Shown: positions 1-6,252, counted from the first letter of the stretch. The stretch is DNA of 6,932 nt from Candidatus Odinarchaeota archaeon (GCA_038826135.1 JAWBON010000060.1:1-6932), one strand, 5' to 3'. Numbers and translations are program-made. Notes: generated by a model from the letters alone, not told the origin.

Positions 1-1380
1 GCTGTTAATGAATTTATCCAACTCTTCTTTCGACTCTGTCTCAGTGGGTTCAATCATAAGCGCCTCGCTTAAAATCAACGGGAAGTAATTAGTGGGTGCG
101 TGAACACCTAAGTCCAAGAGGTTTTTAGCTATATCTAATGCGGATACCCCGGTTTCTTTCAGTAAAGGTGAAGCGCTGAACACAACCTCGTGTTTCCTAG
201 GTGTTTGAGGAGAGTATTTAAGGGAGAGTCCTCTTGTTTTCTCTAGTTTAGCCTTGATATAGTTAGCGTTTAAAACAGATGCTTCAGCGGCTTCTTTTAA
301 ACCGTCAAAACCCATAGATAGAATATAACAGTACGCTCTCACTAAGACGCTTATGTTACCGTAAAATCCTTTTATCTTACCAATAGAGTACGGTAGATCA
401 TAGTTAAGATAATATTTCGATCCATCGTATTCCACCACCGGTACTGGTAGAAATTTCGTTAAACGCTCGCAGACTGCTACAGGACCAGCCCCCGGGCCTC
501 CGCCGCCGTGAGGTGTTGAAAACGTTTTATGAGTGTTTATGTGAATTATATCGAAACCCATATCTCCAGGTCTCACCTTCCCCAGTATCGGGTTAAGATT
601 AGCCCCATCATAATATAATAGAGCGCCGGCGTCATGCACTATTTTAGCAACCTCAACAATATTTTTCTCAAATAACCCTAGTGTATTAGGATTAGTGAGC
701 ATTAACCCTGCTGTTTTATCTGATACGCTGCTTTTCAAAGCTTCCATATCTATTAAACCGTTCTCATCTGATGGTAATACTACAACTTCGAAACCGCCCA
801 TTCGAGCGCTTGCAGGATTAGTTCCATGAGCTGAATCCGGTATAAGCATCTCACTTCTCTTATCTAGTTCACCGTTATATTTATGATATGCTCTTATTAA
901 CAGGGCTCCTAACAGCTCTCCGTGAGCTCCAGCAGCCGGCTGAAGTGAAACAGCAGCAGCCCCTGTTATTTCTGCAAGCCATTTTTGAAGAGTATATAAT
1001 ATTTCTAGTAATCCTTGCATTGTTTCAGAAGACTGGTATGGGTGAATATTAGTAAGCTCCATTAAACCTGTGATAGCTTCATTAATCCTAGGATTATATT
1101 TCATAGTGCAGCTGCCTAAGGGGTAAATGCCGCTGTCAACACCCCAGTTCATCTGGGATAAGCGCGTGTAGTGCCTGGTCACGTTCACCTCTGATACTTC
1201 CGGTAAACGCGGCGGCTTGCTGCGAATCATATTAGTCGGAATCAGCTTCTTATAGTCTCCCACCTCTCTTTCAACAGTTTCATCTAGTTCAGGCAGTCTA
1301 TATCCAACTCTGCCTTCCTCCGATAACTCGAAGATAAGCGGTTCACTCCACTTAGCTTGTCTATATGTTCTTCTATCCAT
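1..1380 (-). CDS. gcvPB: Glycine dehydrogenase (decarboxylating) subunit 2, glycine cleavage P protein beta; 3' end lies beyond the left edge of the window
   Basis: Not in the ORF track. My manual translation gives 460 open codons: MDRRTYRQAKWSEPLIFELS...RHYTRLSQMNWGVDSGIYPLGSCTMKYNP...QPAAGAHGE...PDSAHGTNPASA...LTNPNTLGLFE...YYDGANLN...HINTHKTFSTPHGGGGPGAGP (PLP lysine motif)...HAPTNYFPL...LMIEPTETESKEELDKF. Start is ATG 1380 or the in-frame ATG 1383, which overlaps the gcvPA stop as ATGA. Confidence 0.97.
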   Translation of the reverse strand, partial: MDRRTYRQAKWSEPLIFELSEEGRVGYRLPELDETVEREVGDYKKLIPTNMIRSKPPRLPEVSEVNVTRHYTRLSQMNWGVDSGIYPLGSCTMKYNPRINEAITGLMELTNIHPYQSSETMQGLLEILYTLQKWLAEITGAAAVSLQPAAGAHGELLGALLIRAYHKYNGELDKRSEMLIPDSAHGTNPASARMGGFEVVVLPSDENGLIDMEALKSSVSDKTAGLMLTNPNTLGLFEKNIVEVAKIVHDAGALLYYDGANLNPILGKVRPGDMGFDIIHINTHKTFSTPHGGGGPGAGPVAVCERLTKFLPVPVVEYDGSKYYLNYDLPYSIGKIKGFYGNISVLVRAYCYILSMGFDGLKEAAEASVLNANYIKAKLEKTRGLSLKYSPQTPRKHEVVFSASPLLKETGVSALDIAKNLLDLGVHAPTNYFPLILSEALMIEPTETESKEELDKFINS

Positions 1381-2798
1381 CATTTTTCAACCACCTCCCG
1401 GAGGCTGTTTACAAGAAAGTCAATATCCTCTTTCATATGCACTTCAGTGGTGCAGAGGAGAATTGTTTTACCCAGATCAGGATACTCTTCTTCCAAAGAT
1501 TTGCCGAAGATTAAACCTTTCTTTAACAGTTTTTTCTGAAGCCCTATGCATGAAATCTTCAACCGGTCAATGTTAACCGTGAACTCTTTAAAGTGAACAC
1601 TGTGAAAAACAGGGCATGAAAGCTCGCGGAAGCCTTGAAGCTTCTTTATTAAATACTGAGTATTATAGAAAATATTCTTGCTAAGTTTAATAATCCCATT
1701 TTTACCAAGCGCCGCCATATATATTGCAGCCGCTGCTGTTAGAAGACCCTCATTCGAGCAAATATTAGACGTGGCTTTCTCCCGTTTTATATGCTGTTCT
1801 CTAGATGTTAAAGTCATCACGTACCCTCTTTCACCACCTTCCAGGCTTGTAGTCATACCTATTAGGCGACCCGGCAGCTGGCGCACCATCTTCTTATCAT
1901 CTCTGCAACCGAATATTCCAAGCAGGGGGCCTCCGCAGTTTAACGGTGACCCGAAAGGTTGACCTTCACCTATAACTATATCAGCGCCGTAAGCGCCTGG
2001 AGGTTTAATTATACCAAGAGAGGTTGGATCAACCCCTACCACGAAAAGAGATTCATTATTCTTACATATCGTTGAGATCTCATCAACCTGGTCTTCTATA
2101 ACTCCAAGATAGCTCGGATTCTCAACATATACTGCGGATACATCACCGTTCATTTTAGATTTTAAATCGGATAAATCGATTTTACCAGTATCTGGAATAT
2201 ACTTAATCTTCTGAATTTCAATACCAGCACACTCAGTATATGAACGAAGTGTAGCATACCTGTCAGGGTGAATTATTTCAGGGATGAGAAACTTTTTCCT
2301 CTTATTTAATCGATTACACATCAACGCGGCTTCGCCTAAAGCTGAAGCCCAGTCGTACATAGATTCATTAACAACATCGATTTCTAAAAGCTCAGCCATC
2401 ATACTCTGATACTCGTAGAATGTTTGGAGAATTCCCTGTGATGCTTCCGCTTGATATCCCCGCCGCACCTGACGGTGAAGCGGCTATGGGGTGTAAGCGG
2501 TTAGGAATTCCCCACGGCTTAGCAGAGCAGGTATTATTGAAGGAATAAGATGAGGCCACACACCGGCGCCTACAAATATCTTAGAGTAGTCGACTGCTGT
2601 GTTTTTTCTGAGAAGCCGGATAGCTTCACGGTAAACTTCACTCTCCGACATTGATTCAGGCAGGTTCAGATCTCTTCTAAGAATAACACTGCTAGGTATA
2701 TCAGAGTACAGTTGATCTATTGACTTAACACCAATCTCATCCAGCATAGCCTTCTTCACCTTATCAGGAAAGTTCGGTAGATAAGGGTACTCTTTCAA
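1380..2798 (-). CDS. gcvPA: Glycine dehydrogenase (decarboxylating) subunit 1, P protein alpha; two exons, join(2798..2486, 2455..1380), 462 aa after splicing
   Basis: The two track ORFs (2484-2813 and 1380-2468) are in the same frame and encode consecutive parts of GcvPA (YPYLPN...FVGAGVW...RGEFLTAYTP | YQAEASQG...SMYDWASA...REQHIKREKATSNICSNE). Removing 30 nt restores YTPYQ. I prefer TTG 2798 as start (SD-like AGGTGA 5 nt upstream); GTG 2813 is the alternative. Confidence 0.93.
1391..1399 (-). promoter_or_regulatory. Shine-Dalgarno-like site for gcvPB inside the gcvPA 3' end
   Basis: GGGAGGTGG lies 7 nt upstream of ATG 1383 and 10 nt upstream of ATG 1380. Confidence 0.65.
2456..2485 (-). 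other. Candidate 30-nt bulge-helix-bulge intron in gcvPA mRNA
   Basis: mRNA reads ...CCGCUU-AC-A-CCCC-AU^A-GCCG-CUU-CACC-GUCA-GGUG-CGGC-GGGG-AU^A-U-C-AAGCGG... Central helix is CCCC(2491-2488)/GGGG(2461-2458), with two 3-nt AUA bulges on opposite strands and intron helix GCCG/CGGC. Cutting after nt 2 of each bulge joins CCA U + AU CAA, giving Pro-Tyr-Gln. Intron is 21/30 G+C. Confidence 0.88.
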
Positions 2799-2802
2799 AC
2801 AT

Positions 2803-2811
2803 CTCACCTTC
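2803..2811 (-). promoter_or_regulatory. Shine-Dalgarno-like site for gcvPA
   Basis: GAAGGTGAG precedes TTG 2798 (MKEYPYLPN). Confidence 0.55.
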
Positions 2812-2813
2812 AC

Positions 2814-2954: not shown

Positions 2955-4649
2955 ATGTCCGGGGTTTTATGTTTGAATAAAAAACTCGCTATACTCACGT
3001 TATTAGCTTTCATAGTTTTCATAACTGTACCTGTTAACTTATCCCAGCAAGCCTCTTACACACCGCAAGATTATCTTACAGTTTTAACCTTGAACCGCCA
3101 GATCAACGTGAACACATACGGTCAAATAATAATAAATGATACAATGTTAATAGCGAATAATGGAAGCACACAAACAAATTATATTATCATAGGCAATCAT
3201 GCTGATTTTAATGATTACTTGTATTATATATCAGGAGAATCCGACGGCACTAGTTTACAGGTTTCAGACAGATTCACTATTAACAGTAATATCTCTGGGT
3301 ACGCTCTCATACTACCGCAGGCTTTAACACCCACATCAACCGTTAAGATAACCGTTACCTTAGTCTACAGTAGCTTAATAATCTCTAAGGGAGTGGGACA
3401 GTACTCTTTAACTATCCCCCGCTACCCAATCCTCCCATATAATATAACCCAGCTATCTGCTAAAATCACTACTCCAGGTGCTAGAACAACCCCAACATAC
3501 TCCACCTACACAGCTTCAAACCTTACAGCTTACAATTATACAAGTCTTAAAATAGAATACACTTACAGTGGAACACCCTTAGCCGAATATAATCTATTCC
3601 AGAGAAGTTTAGAGGTTAACCCCTGGCTTGGTTTAAAAATAACAGATAAACATAATATTACAATATTAAACACCGGAGTCTCATCTGGAATAACCCAGCT
3701 TCCTGTAAACACTCTCCCGCATGCTCAAAGATTCAGAGTATATGATGATGCGGGGCGCCTCAGCTTCGATCAAAACGTTAATGAAAATATCACGGTAATA
3801 ACGGTGAAGTTCAGATACACGGTCTACAGCAATCAAAGCTATATATTCTATGTGGAATACTGGCTGCCTACTGAACTATACCGTGGAGCTGCGGCGGATA
3901 GTATTAGACTACAGACAAATCCACCCCAGTACACTACTAAACTATATTCATTGAATATAATACTCTCAGCTTCATCAACCATCACCAGTTATAACACTCC
4001 TTCAGGATACACTGTTCAAACCGGTTTTAACACACTCACTATTACAAGAGAGAACATAACAGCCTATAATACAGGAGCAGTCGAGTTCACTTATACACTA
4101 GGATTCACAGACTTAATAGGAAGACCCCTCCTTATCACTGCGATAACTGGAATATTATTAACCGCGTTCCTTTACTGGAAGATCAGAACAGGAAAAGAGA
4201 AAGACGCTGTAGAGGTTGAGAGAGAGAAACCTAAAGAGTTAATCAGCGAGTTCTGTAAACTCTACGAGGATAAAGCGGCTATAATTGAAAGACTTGACCG
4301 GTTAGAAGTAGACTACTTGAAAGGTAAGATTAGAAGATTAGACTATCAGAAGAGAAAGACTACATATATTAACGAGCTTGGCCGCCTTGACCGTGAATTA
4401 AAACCGTTAAAAGAGGAGTTAAGTAAAGCCGGCGCAGCTTATAGTAAAACAGTAAGCAGCTTAGAACGGCTTGAACTGGAGAGAGATAACACGCAAAGAC
4501 AATTAGAAGATTTAAGATACAGATACAGGGAGAAACGGATCACAACAGCCACCTACACTAAAATAAAAGAGGAGCTGGAGAAGAAAATAATGAAAATATC
4601 ACAGGACATAGATAAAAAGATAATCGGGTTAAGACAAGAAGCCTCGTAA
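2955..4649 (+). CDS. Ribophorin I (oligosaccharyltransferase subunit 1, RPN1/Ost1)-like type I membrane glycoprotein
   Basis: 564 aa. N-terminal hydrophobic signal, then a ~360-aa beta-rich S/T/Y-rich ectodomain with two similar module starts (TLNRQINVNTYG; FQRSLEVNPWLG, resembling RPN1 RVIEVSHWG) and a VKFRYTV segment resembling RPN1 RPRFPLFGG. One TM helix (LLITAITGILLTAFLYW) and a charged coiled-coil tail follow. 11 N-x-S/T sequons, all N-terminal to the TM. Family call is by recall, not by search. Alternative start TTG 2973. Confidence 0.75.
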   Translation: MSGVLCLNKKLAILTLLAFIVFITVPVNLSQQASYTPQDYLTVLTLNRQINVNTYGQIIINDTMLIANNGSTQTNYIIIGNHADFNDYLYYISGESDGTSLQVSDRFTINSNISGYALILPQALTPTSTVKITVTLVYSSLIISKGVGQYSLTIPRYPILPYNITQLSAKITTPGARTTPTYSTYTASNLTAYNYTSLKIEYTYSGTPLAEYNLFQRSLEVNPWLGLKITDKHNITILNTGVSSGITQLPVNTLPHAQRFRVYDDAGRLSFDQNVNENITVITVKFRYTVYSNQSYIFYVEYWLPTELYRGAAADSIRLQTNPPQYTTKLYSLNIILSASSTITSYNTPSGYTVQTGFNTLTITRENITAYNTGAVEFTYTLGFTDLIGRPLLITAITGILLTAFLYWKIRTGKEKDAVEVEREKPKELISEFCKLYEDKAAIIERLDRLEVDYLKGKIRRLDYQKRKTTYINELGRLDRELKPLKEELSKAGAAYSKTVSSLERLELERDNTQRQLEDLRYRYREKRITTATYTKIKEELEKKIMKISQDIDKKIIGLRQEAS

Positions 4650-4654
4650 ATAGT

Positions 4655-5845
4655 TCAGCCTGAGACACGTATATTATAGTTAGCCGCGATCTCCTTAAAA
4701 GATTCAGCTACATAGCGGATTTGATCCCATGTTAAACCGTAAACGTTAATCTTAAAATTCCTCGTAGCCCCTGGAAAAATCCCTGTAATATTCCGTCTAT
4801 CTAATTCATGGTAGAGGAAATACCCTTTTTTCTTATGCGCCTGCGCGATCTTATCAAAAGAGCCTGTCGTGTCAAGCTTCATAAGAGTGTGCATACGAGG
4901 CTTCTGGCCGAGAACCCGGTTGCCCTCAATCTTCTCAAATTCGCCTACAAAAAACCGGGCTTTTTTAACCTCTTCATCCCATCTCTTAACCCGCTCTTTC
5001 ACATAAGGGAAGCTTGCCATCATCGCAAGAAGCGGCGCGCCCATCACAGTGCATCCTAAAAGATGAGTCTCCTTAATACCGAAGCTGCGACCACTGACAT
5101 CCCCTTTCATACGCGTGGTTGAAAAAATTCTGGAAGCCCACTCCTCAGACATAGCTAAAACCCCTGTAGGCGCCGGTGAAGCCATACTCTTATGACCTGA
5201 CCCTACTATGAAATCAGCACCCAGTGTTTTACCGTCAACCGGCATAACACCAACCGTGTAAGCTCCATTATATAGAAAAGGCACCCCATACTCTTTAGCA
5301 ACTTTAATAAGCTCCTGTATCGGATGCATGTTCCCGAAAAGATAGTCAACATGACTTAAAATAACAAGTTTAGGCTGATCTTTACCTTTAACACGCCGAA
5401 TCTCCTCGATTTTACTAGCTAAAAACTCAGGTCTCATAACATAATTTTCATCAACATTAACCTCGGCCAGACTAGCACCAGCCTCCTCAACAGCTAGAAA
5501 AACAGTGTAATGTGATAAAACAGAGCCTACAGCAATATCCCCGGGTTTAAGAAGCGTTAAAGCTACAGCTTGAAAACCACGCCGAGCACCAGGCATAACA
5601 CGTGCAACATCCATATTAAGCCATTCAGCCAGCTCCTGGTAAAACTCTCCTATAGGAGGCTTACTAATCTTATCAAGCCTGAAAGGTTTAAGACATAAAT
5701 CACAAGTAGAGTAACCGTCCCCGTAAGAGATAAGCGCCTTCCTAGCCGCGCTGGTAAGCACACCCGCTCTTTGAATAGGATTCAAATTAATATAATCCTC
5801 CTCCACACGTCTAACATTATCAACCTCACATACATCCCAAGGCAT
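4655..5845 (-). CDS. pscS: O-phospho-L-seryl-tRNA:Cys-tRNA synthase (SepCysS)
   Basis: 396 aa with INLNPIQRAG, GDGYSTCDLC (CxxC), the PLP lysine motif VGSGHKSMASPAPTG, the third cysteine in LLGCT, and ASFPYVKERVKRWDEE. Confidence 0.95.
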   Translation of the reverse strand: MPWDVCEVDNVRRVEEDYINLNPIQRAGVLTSAARKALISYGDGYSTCDLCLKPFRLDKISKPPIGEFYQELAEWLNMDVARVMPGARRGFQAVALTLLKPGDIAVGSVLSHYTVFLAVEEAGASLAEVNVDENYVMRPEFLASKIEEIRRVKGKDQPKLVILSHVDYLFGNMHPIQELIKVAKEYGVPFLYNGAYTVGVMPVDGKTLGADFIVGSGHKSMASPAPTGVLAMSEEWASRIFSTTRMKGDVSGRSFGIKETHLLGCTVMGAPLLAMMASFPYVKERVKRWDEEVKKARFFVGEFEKIEGNRVLGQKPRMHTLMKLDTTGSFDKIAQAHKKKGYFLYHELDRRNITGIFPGATRNFKINVYGLTWDQIRYVAESFKEIAANYNIRVSG

Positions 5846-6034: not shown

Positions 6035-6105
6035 TTAACAGGATACTAATATGTAGAGAACACAAAACCTTAAAAACTTAAATGTTAAAATCATTCCTAA
6101 CCTAC
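6035..6105. promoter_or_regulatory. Divergent promoter region (pscS operon / tRNA-Gln)
   Basis: AT-rich gap with AAAACC-TTAAAAA (6064-6076) and CTTAAAT (6077-6083), about 25-35 nt upstream of the tRNA. The same tract reads TTTTTAAG on the minus strand. Confidence 0.45.
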
Positions 6106-6143
6106 AGCCCGGTGGTGTAGCGGCCAAGCATAGAGGGCTTTGG

Positions 6144-6164
6144 AACACTTTAAAGTGTAAAGAA
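6144..6164 (+). other. tRNA intron 1, canonical 37/38 position, 21 nt
   Basis: Strict BHB: central helix CUUU(6138-6141)/AAAG(6159-6162), bulges GG^A and AA^A, intron hairpin ACACU/AGUGU, exon helix formed by the anticodon stem. Confidence 0.92.
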
Positions 6165-6174
6165 ACCCTTAGAC

Positions 6175-6195
6175 CCCTTATTAAAAAGGCTAAAA
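6175..6195 (+). other. tRNA intron 2, non-canonical position at the variable loop/T-stem junction (48/49), 21 nt
   Basis: BHB-like: central helix UUAG(6169-6172)/CUAA(6190-6193), bulges AC^C and AA^A, intron hairpin CCUU/AAGG, 2-bp exon helix CC/GG. Splicing yields CCCUU-AGAC-AGGAG-UUCGAAU. Confidence 0.85.
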
Positions 6196-6252
6196 AGGAG
6201 TTCGAATCTCCTCCGGGCTACCATCATATCTACGACAGGTAATGAAAACAGC

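What the first reader, a model, noticed from the sequence alone, without database searches (positions are those of the whole stretch)
2447..2500. tRNA-type (BHB) intron inside the gcvPA protein-coding gene
Seen: a 30-nt, 70% GC insertion splits the GcvP motif YTP|YQ and places UAG (2486-2484) in frame. The RNA forms a BHB: 4-bp CCCC/GGGG helix, two 3-nt AUA bulges, a 4-5 bp intron stem with hairpin, and an exon-side A-U pair plus 6-bp CCGCUU/AAGCGG helix. Cutting after bulge nt 2 on each strand, the established EndA rule, rebuilds UAC ACC CCA UAU CAA (YTPYQ) to the nucleotide. Established: archaeal splicing endonuclease processes tRNA and rRNA introns, and the classic mRNA case is crenarchaeal cbf5. 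Inference: this is archaeal pre-mRNA splicing in a central metabolic gene, probably in an Asgard-like host, and automated pipelines would mis-call it as a split gene or pseudogene. I cannot check whether this case has been published.
Basis: partly seen in the sequence, partly recalled or inferred. Interest (0 to 1): 0.95.

Follow-up and report, generated by a model that had tools for sequence, protein, structure and literature searches.

The report
tRNA-type intron inside Asgard gcvPA gene
The glycine-cleavage gene gcvPA of this hot-spring Odinarchaeia (Asgard) archaeon is interrupted by a 30-base insert shaped like an archaeal tRNA intron, so the enzyme can very probably be made only after the mRNA is cut and re-joined, which published work reports for hardly any archaeal protein gene.

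Summary
gcvPA (minus strand, 2813..1380) carries a 30-nt, 70% GC insert (2485..2456) with an in-frame TAG. The minimum-energy fold is a bulge-helix-bulge motif. Cutting after the second nucleotide of each bulge restores YTPYQ and a 467-aa GcvPA.

The insert sits at the same codon in 8 distinct Odinarchaeia sequences. It is 28, 29 or 30 nt long, so most copies also shift the frame. Twelve of 20 base pairs show compensatory changes, including one in the central helix and two between synonymous codon positions of the two exons. No interruption was seen in the listed matches from 240 other Asgard genomes.

Both exons are under purifying selection. gcvPB, gcvT and gcvH are intact. Two EndA subunits and RtcB are encoded.

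I verified similar 25-29-nt introns in three other genes of this genome: gatA, citG and an adenosine-kinase-family gene.

No RNA data covered the locus, so splicing itself is inferred.

The papers I could search report coding-region introns of this type only for crenarchaeal cbf5. This scan had already flagged the same gcvPA intron in another Odinarchaeia genome (e1-2929216).

Verdict: a real mRNA intron with about 0.88 confidence, and a new member of a known kind.

The parts
2486..2813 (-). gcvPA exon 1. It ends with ...UAC ACC CCA U, the first base of the Tyr codon. The start codon is uncertain: GTG at 2813, or a start 5 codons in, as in the 104-aa public gene calls.
2456..2485 (-). 30-nt BHB intron (phase 1), 70% GC. 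The in-frame stop UAG straddles the 5' splice site at 2486-2484. The splice sites are 2486|2485 and 2456|2455.
1380..2455 (-). gcvPA exon 2. It starts with AU CAA GCG and includes the stop at 1382-1380.
2488..2491 (-). Central 4-bp helix, exonic 5' strand CCCC. It pairs with 2458-2461.
   Evidence: CUCC/GGAG in L055
2458..2461 (-). Central 4-bp helix, intronic 3' strand GGGG.
2485..2487 (-). 5' bulge AUA. Cleavage falls after its second nucleotide.
   Evidence: invariant in 8 sequences
2455..2457 (-). 3' bulge AUA (AGA or AAA in relatives). Cleavage falls after its second nucleotide.
2480..2484 (-). Intron stem (h'), 5' strand GCCGC. It pairs with 2462-2466. The 13-nt loop lies at 2467-2479.
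   Evidence: 9/9 stem pairs covary
2462..2466 (-). Intron stem (h'), 3' strand GCGGC.
2492..2500 (-). Exon-exon helix (h), 5' strand: CCGCUU (2500-2495), then AC unpaired, then A2492 pairing with U2454.
2447..2454 (-). Exon-exon helix (h), 3' strand: U2454, then C unpaired, then AAGCGG (2452-2447).
1..1383 (-). gcvPB, cut by the window end. It is intact and is the immediate downstream partner of gcvPA.

Best explanation
This is a genuine archaeal bulge-helix-bulge intron inside the coding region of gcvPA.

Inferred mechanism: the pre-mRNA folds so that exon 1 (CCCC plus CCGCUU) pairs with the intron's GGGG and with exon 2 (AAGCGG). This presents two 3-nt bulges 4 bp apart. The two-subunit splicing endonuclease EndA, of crenarchaeal/Asgard type, cuts after the second nucleotide of each bulge (2486|2485 and 2456|2455). 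RtcB ligates the exons. The 30-nt intron is released, probably as a circle. The spliced mRNA encodes a 467-aa GcvPA that works with the intact GcvPB, GcvT and GcvH.

The intron arose in, or before, the common ancestor of the two sampled Odinarchaeia families and has been kept since.

Shown here: the structure, the conservation, the covariation, restoration of the frame and motif, and the presence of the enzymes. Inferred: actual cleavage and ligation in the cell.
For: 1. The MFE fold equals the BHB, z = -3.76.
2. The spliced product is a full GcvPA: Pfam GDC-P 345.8 bits and NCBIfam GcvPA 550.6 bits, each one stretch across the junction. It aligns without a gap to intron-less Asgard homologues at YTPYQ.
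3. There is an insert at the same codon in 8 distinct sequences, 28/29/30 nt long. In 5 of the 8 sequences it also shifts the frame. Spliced ORFs are 461-483 aa against 104-125 aa unspliced.
4. Covariation: 93.1% of cells are paired against 35-51% in slid controls. Twelve of 20 pairs change on both sides. All 9 intron-stem pairs covary. The central helix changes CCCC/GGGG to CUCC/GGAG. Two exon-exon pairs covary through synonymous third positions (ACC GCU..CAA GCG versus ACU GCC..CAG GCA). In 0 of 500 shuffles was the score reached.
5. pN/pS is 0.13-0.42 in both exons.
6. gcvPA is single-copy. gcvPB, gcvT and gcvH are intact.
7. Two EndA paralogues are encoded. One is closest to the A. pernix / S. 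tokodaii / P. aerophilum EndA chains. RtcB is also present.
8. The same genome has BHB micro-introns in gatA, citG and an Adenosine_kin gene, and ARAGORN calls introns in 23 of 31 tRNA genes.
9. In my genome-wide BHB plus broken-ORF scans this site was the best short-intron candidate among the 4 that passed the strict scan and had the second-lowest energy of the 16 that passed the relaxed one.
Against: There is no RNA-level evidence. The two raw-read metatranscriptomes laid gave 0 reads on the locus, so they are no test. One contig from a library labelled metatranscriptomic, but probably DNA, carries the unspliced form. The exon-side helix next to the 3' bulge is only 1 bp before a 2x1 internal loop, so the motif is not the strictest hBHBh' form. 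In this window alone, a GTG inside the intron (2468) is in frame with exon 2.
Confidence: 0.88

Rival explanations
1. Split gene: the insert is never removed. A 104-109-aa N-terminal fragment and a ~340-360-aa C-terminal fragment are translated separately and assemble non-covalently into GcvPA.
For: Gene callers produce exactly these two ORFs. In this window a GTG at 2468 inside the insert is in frame with exon 2.
Against: In five of the six sequences checked by script there is no in-frame start inside the insert; the first one lies 53-56 nt downstream of the junction. Separate translation would therefore drop the YQAEASQGILQ.FYEYQS segment. That segment is nearly invariant at the protein level. 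This model does not explain the conserved BHB geometry, the covariation in three helices, or the synonymous-site covariation between exons.
Confidence: 0.05
2. Regulatory cleavage only: EndA cuts the BHB but the exons are not, or only conditionally, re-ligated. The element would then act as an off-switch or decay signal for gcvPA mRNA.
For: The BHB is well supported. A BHB in a 5' UTR affects expression in Haloferax (PMC7714728).
Against: The only gcvPA copy would never yield a functional protein. Yet both exons are under purifying selection and the rest of the pathway is kept. RtcB is encoded.
Confidence: 0.04
3. Pseudogene or recoding: either the gene is decaying, or the stop and frameshift are bypassed by readthrough or ribosomal frameshifting.
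For: There is an in-frame TAG and, in relatives, a frameshift.
Against: The interruption is fixed at one codon across two families, while both exons stay open with pN/pS of 0.13-0.42. Recoding would need both readthrough and a -1 or -2 shift in the 28/29-nt variants but only readthrough in the 30-nt ones. Translating the insert would add about 10 residues in the middle of an invariant motif.
Confidence: 0.02
4. Assembly or sequencing artefact.
For: None was found.
Against: The insert is present in contigs from other samples and in 7 further distinct sequences from independent assemblies: GTDB genomes, JGI, ENA and Logan.
Confidence: 0.01

Closest known systems
cbf5 pre-mRNA BHB intron of Crenarchaeota (Watanabe 2002; Yoshinari 2006; Yokobori 2009, PMC2738675)
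   Same: It is a BHB-type intron inside a protein-coding region. It is removed by the tRNA splicing endonuclease of hetero-oligomeric type, with no spliceosome. It has been gained and lost within a lineage.
   Different: The gene differs: a metabolic enzyme (gcvPA) rather than an RNA-modification enzyme. The phylum differs: Asgard, class Odinarchaeia. cbf5 itself is uninterrupted here. This intron is one of several mRNA micro-introns in the same genome.
Non-canonical archaeal tRNA introns (hBHBh' and relaxed HBh' motifs; Marck & Grosjean 2003; Asgard tRNA intron abundance, PMC11291895 and bioRxiv 10.64898/2026.10.13.758758)
   Same: It has the same motif geometry (3-4-3), the same 2|1 cleavage rule, a similar size, and presumably the same enzymes.
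   Different: The host RNA is an mRNA. The exon strands of the helices are built from codons, so RNA structure and protein coding constrain the same nucleotides. This shows as synonymous-site covariation.
BHB intron in the 5' UTR of Haloferax volcanii HVO_1309 mRNA (PMC7714728)
   Same: It is an EndA substrate within an mRNA.
   Different: That intron lies in the untranslated leader and does not interrupt the reading frame.
HAC1/XBP1 unconventional mRNA splicing in eukaryotes (IRE1 cleavage, RtcB or Trl1 ligation)
   Same: It is protein-only, spliceosome-independent excision of a short intron from a coding mRNA. Ligation is by an RtcB-type enzyme in metazoa.
   Different: The endonuclease (IRE1) and the recognition motif (twin stem-loops) are different. 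The eukaryotic case is stress-regulated. No regulation is shown here.

Membership tests
Archaeal BHB intron (EndA substrate) | Two 3-nt bulges on opposite strands, separated by exactly 4 bp | tested here: met
   The MFE structure shows it. The 4-bp helix is 100% paired and the bulge lengths are invariant in 8 sequences.
Archaeal BHB intron (EndA substrate) | Intron-side flanking helix h' | tested here: met
   The helix is 5 bp here and up to 9 bp in relatives. All 9 pairs covary.
Archaeal BHB intron (EndA substrate) | Exon-side flanking helix h of at least 2 bp directly adjoining the bulge (strict hBHBh') | tested here: inconclusive
   There is only 1 A-U pair, then a 2x1 internal loop, then a 6-bp helix. 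This fits a relaxed motif. EndA with the L1 loop, as reported for Asgard (PMC5829648), accepts relaxed motifs.
Archaeal BHB intron (EndA substrate) | Cleavage after the second nucleotide of each bulge yields a functional product | tested here: met
   In silico splicing restores YTPYQ and 461-483-aa ORFs in the six sequences spliced by script. The other two (L054, L055) restore the same motif when read by hand.
Archaeal BHB intron (EndA substrate) | Host encodes the splicing endonuclease and an RNA ligase | tested here: met
   PF01974 matches in two genes: one at C45, and one across C48 and C72, which is a single gene spanning contig ends. RtcB matches at 494.6 bits.
Archaeal BHB intron (EndA substrate) | Spliced RNA or an excised intron is observed, or in vitro cleavage is shown | not testable with these tools
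   The RNA raw-read runs gave 0 reads on the locus. No RNA holder was listed.
GcvPA (NF001696, glycine dehydrogenase subunit 1) | Full-length match above the curated cut-off | tested here: met
   550.6 bits against a cut-off of 364. Residues 9-466 match profile positions 2-446 of 447 in a single stretch across the break.
Group I / group II intron or intein | Ribozyme core, or an in-frame protein-splicing domain | tested here: not met
   Thirty nt is far too short. Rfam finds only a tRNA in the window. The insert carries a stop and, in relatives, a frameshift.

The most novel reading that the evidence does not exclude
Protein-only (EndA/RtcB) mRNA splicing may be a routine, genome-wide part of gene expression in Odinarchaeia. 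Many housekeeping and metabolic genes would then carry 25-31-nt BHB micro-introns that must be removed before translation. Verified here: gcvPA, gatA, citG and an adenosine-kinase-family gene. Flagged by other notes: kae1, pyrG, a radical-SAM gene and UPF0147. This would make an Asgard lineage the first prokaryote known to have a sizeable set of interrupted protein genes. It would imply some way of keeping ribosomes off unspliced mRNA. It would also give a living model for how intron-bearing coding genes can be tolerated without a nucleus.
Probability: 0.6. Interest if true: 0.9.

Novelty: new member of a known kind. Interest (0 to 1): 0.78.

Why it matters
Papers I could search state that cbf5 of Crenarchaeota is the only archaeal mRNA with a BHB intron in its coding region (PMC7714728, 2020). 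Recent work on Asgard introns covers tRNA genes only (PMC11291895; bioRxiv 10.64898/2026.10.13.758758).

A conserved, covarying intron in a central-metabolism gene of an Asgard archaeon, alongside several others in the same genome, has three consequences:
1. It widens archaeal pre-mRNA splicing to a new phylum and a new class of genes.
2. It shows that annotation pipelines systematically mis-call such genes as two ORFs or as pseudogenes. This distorts metabolic reconstructions of Asgard MAGs. Here the glycine cleavage system would look broken.
3. It offers a testable system for how transcription-coupled translation copes with interrupted genes in the closest prokaryotic relatives of eukaryotes.

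Tried and rejected
- **RNA evidence.** No RNA holder was listed. Raw-read metatranscriptomes X12 and X13 laid 0 reads on 1300-2900, so they are no test. X4 is labelled metatranscriptomic but is probably DNA, and it holds only the unspliced form at depth 2.
- **Genome-wide BHB plus broken-ORF scans.**
  - The strict version kept 4 sites. gcvPA was the best short-intron candidate. The other three, with 193-284-nt 'introns', look like chance hits.
  - The relaxed version gave hundreds of hits, mostly junctions between adjacent genes. It is not usable as a census.
  - Two candidates were tested and rejected. C36:6995-7020 is the junction between complete UbiD and AcnX genes. C15:1739-1767 is not a break, because MoxR reads through in another frame.
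  - My filters missed the true gatA intron, so the scans undercount.
- **Search for other copies of the intron in the genome.** blastn-short found none beyond chance 10-12-mers. The intron is not a repeated mobile element.
- **Rfam on 6080-6250 with gathering filters.** This returned nothing, although the whole-window E-value search gave tRNA at 39.1 bits.
- **Metagenome-contig scan.** It added only one Odinarchaeia locus. The word-index search with exon 1 alone was more productive.

Full report
**What is in the sequence**

On the minus strand the window encodes gcvPA from 2813 down to 1380. The frame reads ...L T A Y T P, then stops at TAG (2486-2484). It resumes 30 nt later with Y Q A E A S Q G.

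The two ORFs listed mechanically are 2484..2813 (109 aa) and 1380..2468 (362 aa). Joined with an X at the break, the protein matches two families, each in a single stretch that runs across the break:
- Pfam GDC-P: 4.7e-103, residues 18-461 on profile positions 9-428 of 429.
- The NCBIfam GcvPA equivalog NF001696: 550.6 bits against a cut-off of 364, residues 9-466 on profile positions 2-446 of 447.

The insert is 70% G+C. The window averages about 41% and the genome 38%.

**The fold**

I folded 2505..2440(-) with RNAfold.
- Outer exon-exon helix CCGCUU/AAGCGG.
- A 4-bp central helix CCCC/GGGG.
- A 3-nt AUA bulge on each strand.
- A 5-bp intron stem GCCGC/GCGGC with a 13-nt loop.

The energy is -26.7 kcal/mol, z = -3.76, and none of 200 dinucleotide shuffles folds as well. 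The MFE leaves the single A-U pair next to the 3' bulge (2492/2454) open; that pair is invariant in all 8 sequences.

The arrangement is the one used in archaeal pre-tRNAs: exon strand of the central helix, then bulge, then intron stem on the 5' side, and intron strand of the central helix, then bulge, then exon on the 3' side. That comparison is from established knowledge of the BHB motif.

Cutting after the second nucleotide of each bulge (2486|2485 and 2456|2455) removes 2485..2456. This yields ...ACC CCA U|AU CAA GCG..., a 467-aa ORF with the motif YTPYQ.

One caveat concerns the exon-side helix that directly adjoins the 3' bulge. It is a single A-U pair, followed by a 2x1 internal loop and then 6 bp. 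The motif is therefore slightly relaxed on that side.

**Whose genome**

The window is contig C60 of a 1.26-Mb, 105-contig assembly that is 93% complete. Record titles of the nearest relatives name Candidatus Odinarchaeia / Odinarchaeota. Runs holding the sequence are hot-spring metagenomes.

The neighbouring genes are gcvPB, a ribophorin-I homologue, SepCysS and a DNA-alkylation-repair protein.

**Not an artefact**

A contig from an independent sample covers 2140-2543 without gaps (X2, record 4). Another covers 2424-2574 (X4, record 14).

**Comparative evidence**

Among 40 relatives, gcvPA is broken at the same codon in the three same-genus genomes and in the one genome of the sister family in which this part of the gene is assembled. 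All 26 other Asgard genomes with the gene read through it.

A wider search used a 108-aa query spanning the junction against 301 Asgard genomes. It found the gene in 245. Among the rows listed, only the five Odinarchaeia genomes showed a stop or a two-piece match. 140 weaker rows were not listed.

I then searched the protein database with exon 1 alone. That gave six clusters of 104-aa truncated GcvPA N-termini.

Altogether there are 8 distinct sequences, and the inserts are 28, 29 or 30 nt long:
- Six were spliced in silico by the 2|1 rule. This gave ORFs of 461-483 aa against 104-125 aa unspliced, and restored YTPYQ with no gap relative to intron-less homologues.
- The two added later (L054, L055) restore the same TPYQAEASQG when read by hand.

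In the 28- and 29-nt variants the insert also shifts the frame. Readthrough alone could therefore never rescue them.

In the relatives the 3' bulge is AGA or AAA. Only the BHB register, or the one a single base further, rebuilds the Tyr codon. This removes most of the register ambiguity that the AUA/AUA repeat creates in this window.

**Covariation**

On the 8-sequence alignment A2 I scored the structure I had written by hand:
- 93.1% of cells form standard pairs, against 35-51% when the 3' partners are slid by 1-3 columns.
- 12 of 20 pairs change on both sides, and 0 of 500 shuffles reached that.
- The covariation score is 0.502 against 0.218 +/- 0.034 for shuffles.
- All 9 intron-stem pairs covary, and the stem sequence is almost entirely replaced between lineages.
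- The central helix is CCCC/GGGG in seven sequences and CUCC/GGAG in one.
- Two pairs of the exon-exon helix covary: C-G to U-A, and U-A to C-G.

The last point is the most telling. The exon-exon changes are synonymous third-position changes in codons on opposite sides of the intron. Thr-Ala is ACC GCU versus ACU GCC, and Gln-Ala is CAA GCG versus CAG GCA. Only selection on the RNA helix explains that.

The eight sequences are related, so the shuffle counts overstate independence. The slid-partner control does not have that weakness.

**Is the gene needed and functional?**

Uncorrected pN/pS between this window and five relatives is 0.15-0.42 for exon 1 and 0.13-0.34 for exon 2. gcvPA is single-copy in the genome; the only other match is the gcvPB paralogue. 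gcvPB, gcvT and two gcvH genes are intact.

**The machinery**

The genome has two genes with the tRNA-intron endonuclease catalytic domain.
- One is split over the ends of contigs C48 and C72, which share an identical 42-residue overlap. It is closest to the 186-aa chain of the Aeropyrum pernix enzyme and to the Sulfolobus tokodaii and Pyrobaculum chains.
- The other is 185 aa on C45 and is closest to the M. jannaschii enzyme.

This fits the (alpha-beta)2 enzyme with the L1 loop reported for Asgard and TACK archaea (PMC5829648). Assigning alpha and beta is my inference.

RtcB is present, in a 995-aa open frame with a roughly 1.4-kb in-frame insertion that looks like an intein.

ARAGORN with intron search calls introns in 23 of 31 tRNA genes. 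Some of those calls are certainly imprecise.

**Not alone in this genome**

Notes from the first stage listed BHB inserts in other genes of this genome. I checked three independently:
- C3:14102-14128(-), 27 nt. The joined protein is one stretch of Adenosine_kin PF04008, profile positions 1-153 of 154.
- C79:1196-1220(+), 25 nt. The joined protein is one stretch of CitG PF01874, positions 4-283 of 284.
- C35:9457-9485(+), 29 nt, in gatA. By hand, the helix GCGG/CCGU, the bulges UAU and AGG, and an 8-bp stem give GSDTGG-S-VRQPA after 2|1 cutting.

An essential gene such as gatA being interrupted in the same way argues strongly that these inserts are removed.

cbf5, the classic case, is uninterrupted here.

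**Rivals**

- **Separate translation of two fragments.** This is unlikely. Only this window has an in-frame start inside the insert (GTG at 2468). In the five other sequences checked by script the first start lies 53-56 nt into exon 2, which would delete a segment that is nearly invariant in protein sequence.
- **Pseudogene.** This is excluded by the purifying selection and by a conserved single break across two families.
- **Recoding.** This cannot serve 28-, 29- and 30-nt inserts alike.
- **Cleavage without ligation.** This would leave the pathway without its only GcvPA.

**Literature**

A 2020 study of Haloferax EndA substrates states that the only BHB intron reported in an archaeal mRNA was cbf5 of Crenarchaeota, and adds one in a 5' UTR (PMC7714728). 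Other sources:
- The cbf5 papers are Watanabe 2002, Yoshinari 2006 and Yokobori 2009 (PMC2738675).
- Papers on Asgard introns deal with tRNA genes (PMC11291895; bioRxiv 10.64898/2026.10.13.758758, which never uses the word mRNA).
- Searches combining Asgard or Odinarchaeia terms with BHB or intron found no report of introns in protein genes.

The library lacks most subscription journals, so absence of a report is not proof.

Within this scan, the same gcvPA intron was already flagged and supported in another Odinarchaeia genome (e1-2929216).

**What remains open**

No RNA reads covered the locus. Cleavage, ligation, the fate of the intron and any regulation are therefore inferred.

My attempts at a genome-wide census were either too strict or too noisy. 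The number of mRNA introns in this genome is at least four, and it is otherwise unknown.

Noticed in passing
window 6106-6220 (+): A tRNA gene (Rfam RF00005, 39.1 bits, full model 1-71) spans 115 nt, so it must contain about 40 nt of intron(s). ARAGORN's call of 'tRNA-Stop (tta), intron 21 nt at position 37' is probably a mis-parse.
   Followed up: partly
G000:C35:9457-9485 (+); G000:C3:14102-14128 (-); G000:C79:1196-1220 (+): Three further BHB micro-introns lie in protein-coding genes of the same genome. They are in gatA (29 nt, inside GSDTGGSVRQP), an Adenosine_kin PF04008 gene (27 nt) and citG (25 nt).
   Followed up: yes
window 2495-2500 / 2447-2452 and the homologous positions in L054 and L055: Synonymous third-codon positions of Thr-Ala (exon 1) and Gln-Ala (exon 2) covary across the intron to keep the exon-exon helix. 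This is an example of RNA structure constraining codon choice.
   Followed up: yes
G000:C16:2586-5357 (+): The RtcB ligase gene is a 995-aa open frame. About 1.4 kb is inserted between Pfam positions 50 and 49-426, which is probably an intein. The splicing ligase is itself interrupted, at the protein level.
   Followed up: no
G000:C48:1-420 (-) and G000:C72:2-274 (+): The catalytic-type EndA gene is broken across two contig ends that share an identical 42-residue overlap. This is an assembly break, not two genes.
   Followed up: partly
window 2955-4649 (+): A 564-aa ribophorin-I homologue (PF04597, E = 3.7e-10), a eukaryote-like oligosaccharyltransferase subunit. It is divergently placed next to gcvPA, and the same neighbourhood occurs in the JGI contig L054.
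   Followed up: no
window 4655-5845 (-): SepCysS (TIGR02539, 442 bits). This indicates the tRNA-dependent route to Cys-tRNA.
   Followed up: no
L053, L054, L055 (public contigs): Gene callers annotate the interrupted gcvPA as two ORFs, 104 aa plus 339-350 aa. The second starts at an internal ATG, so the YQAEASQG segment is lost from the databases.
   Followed up: yes
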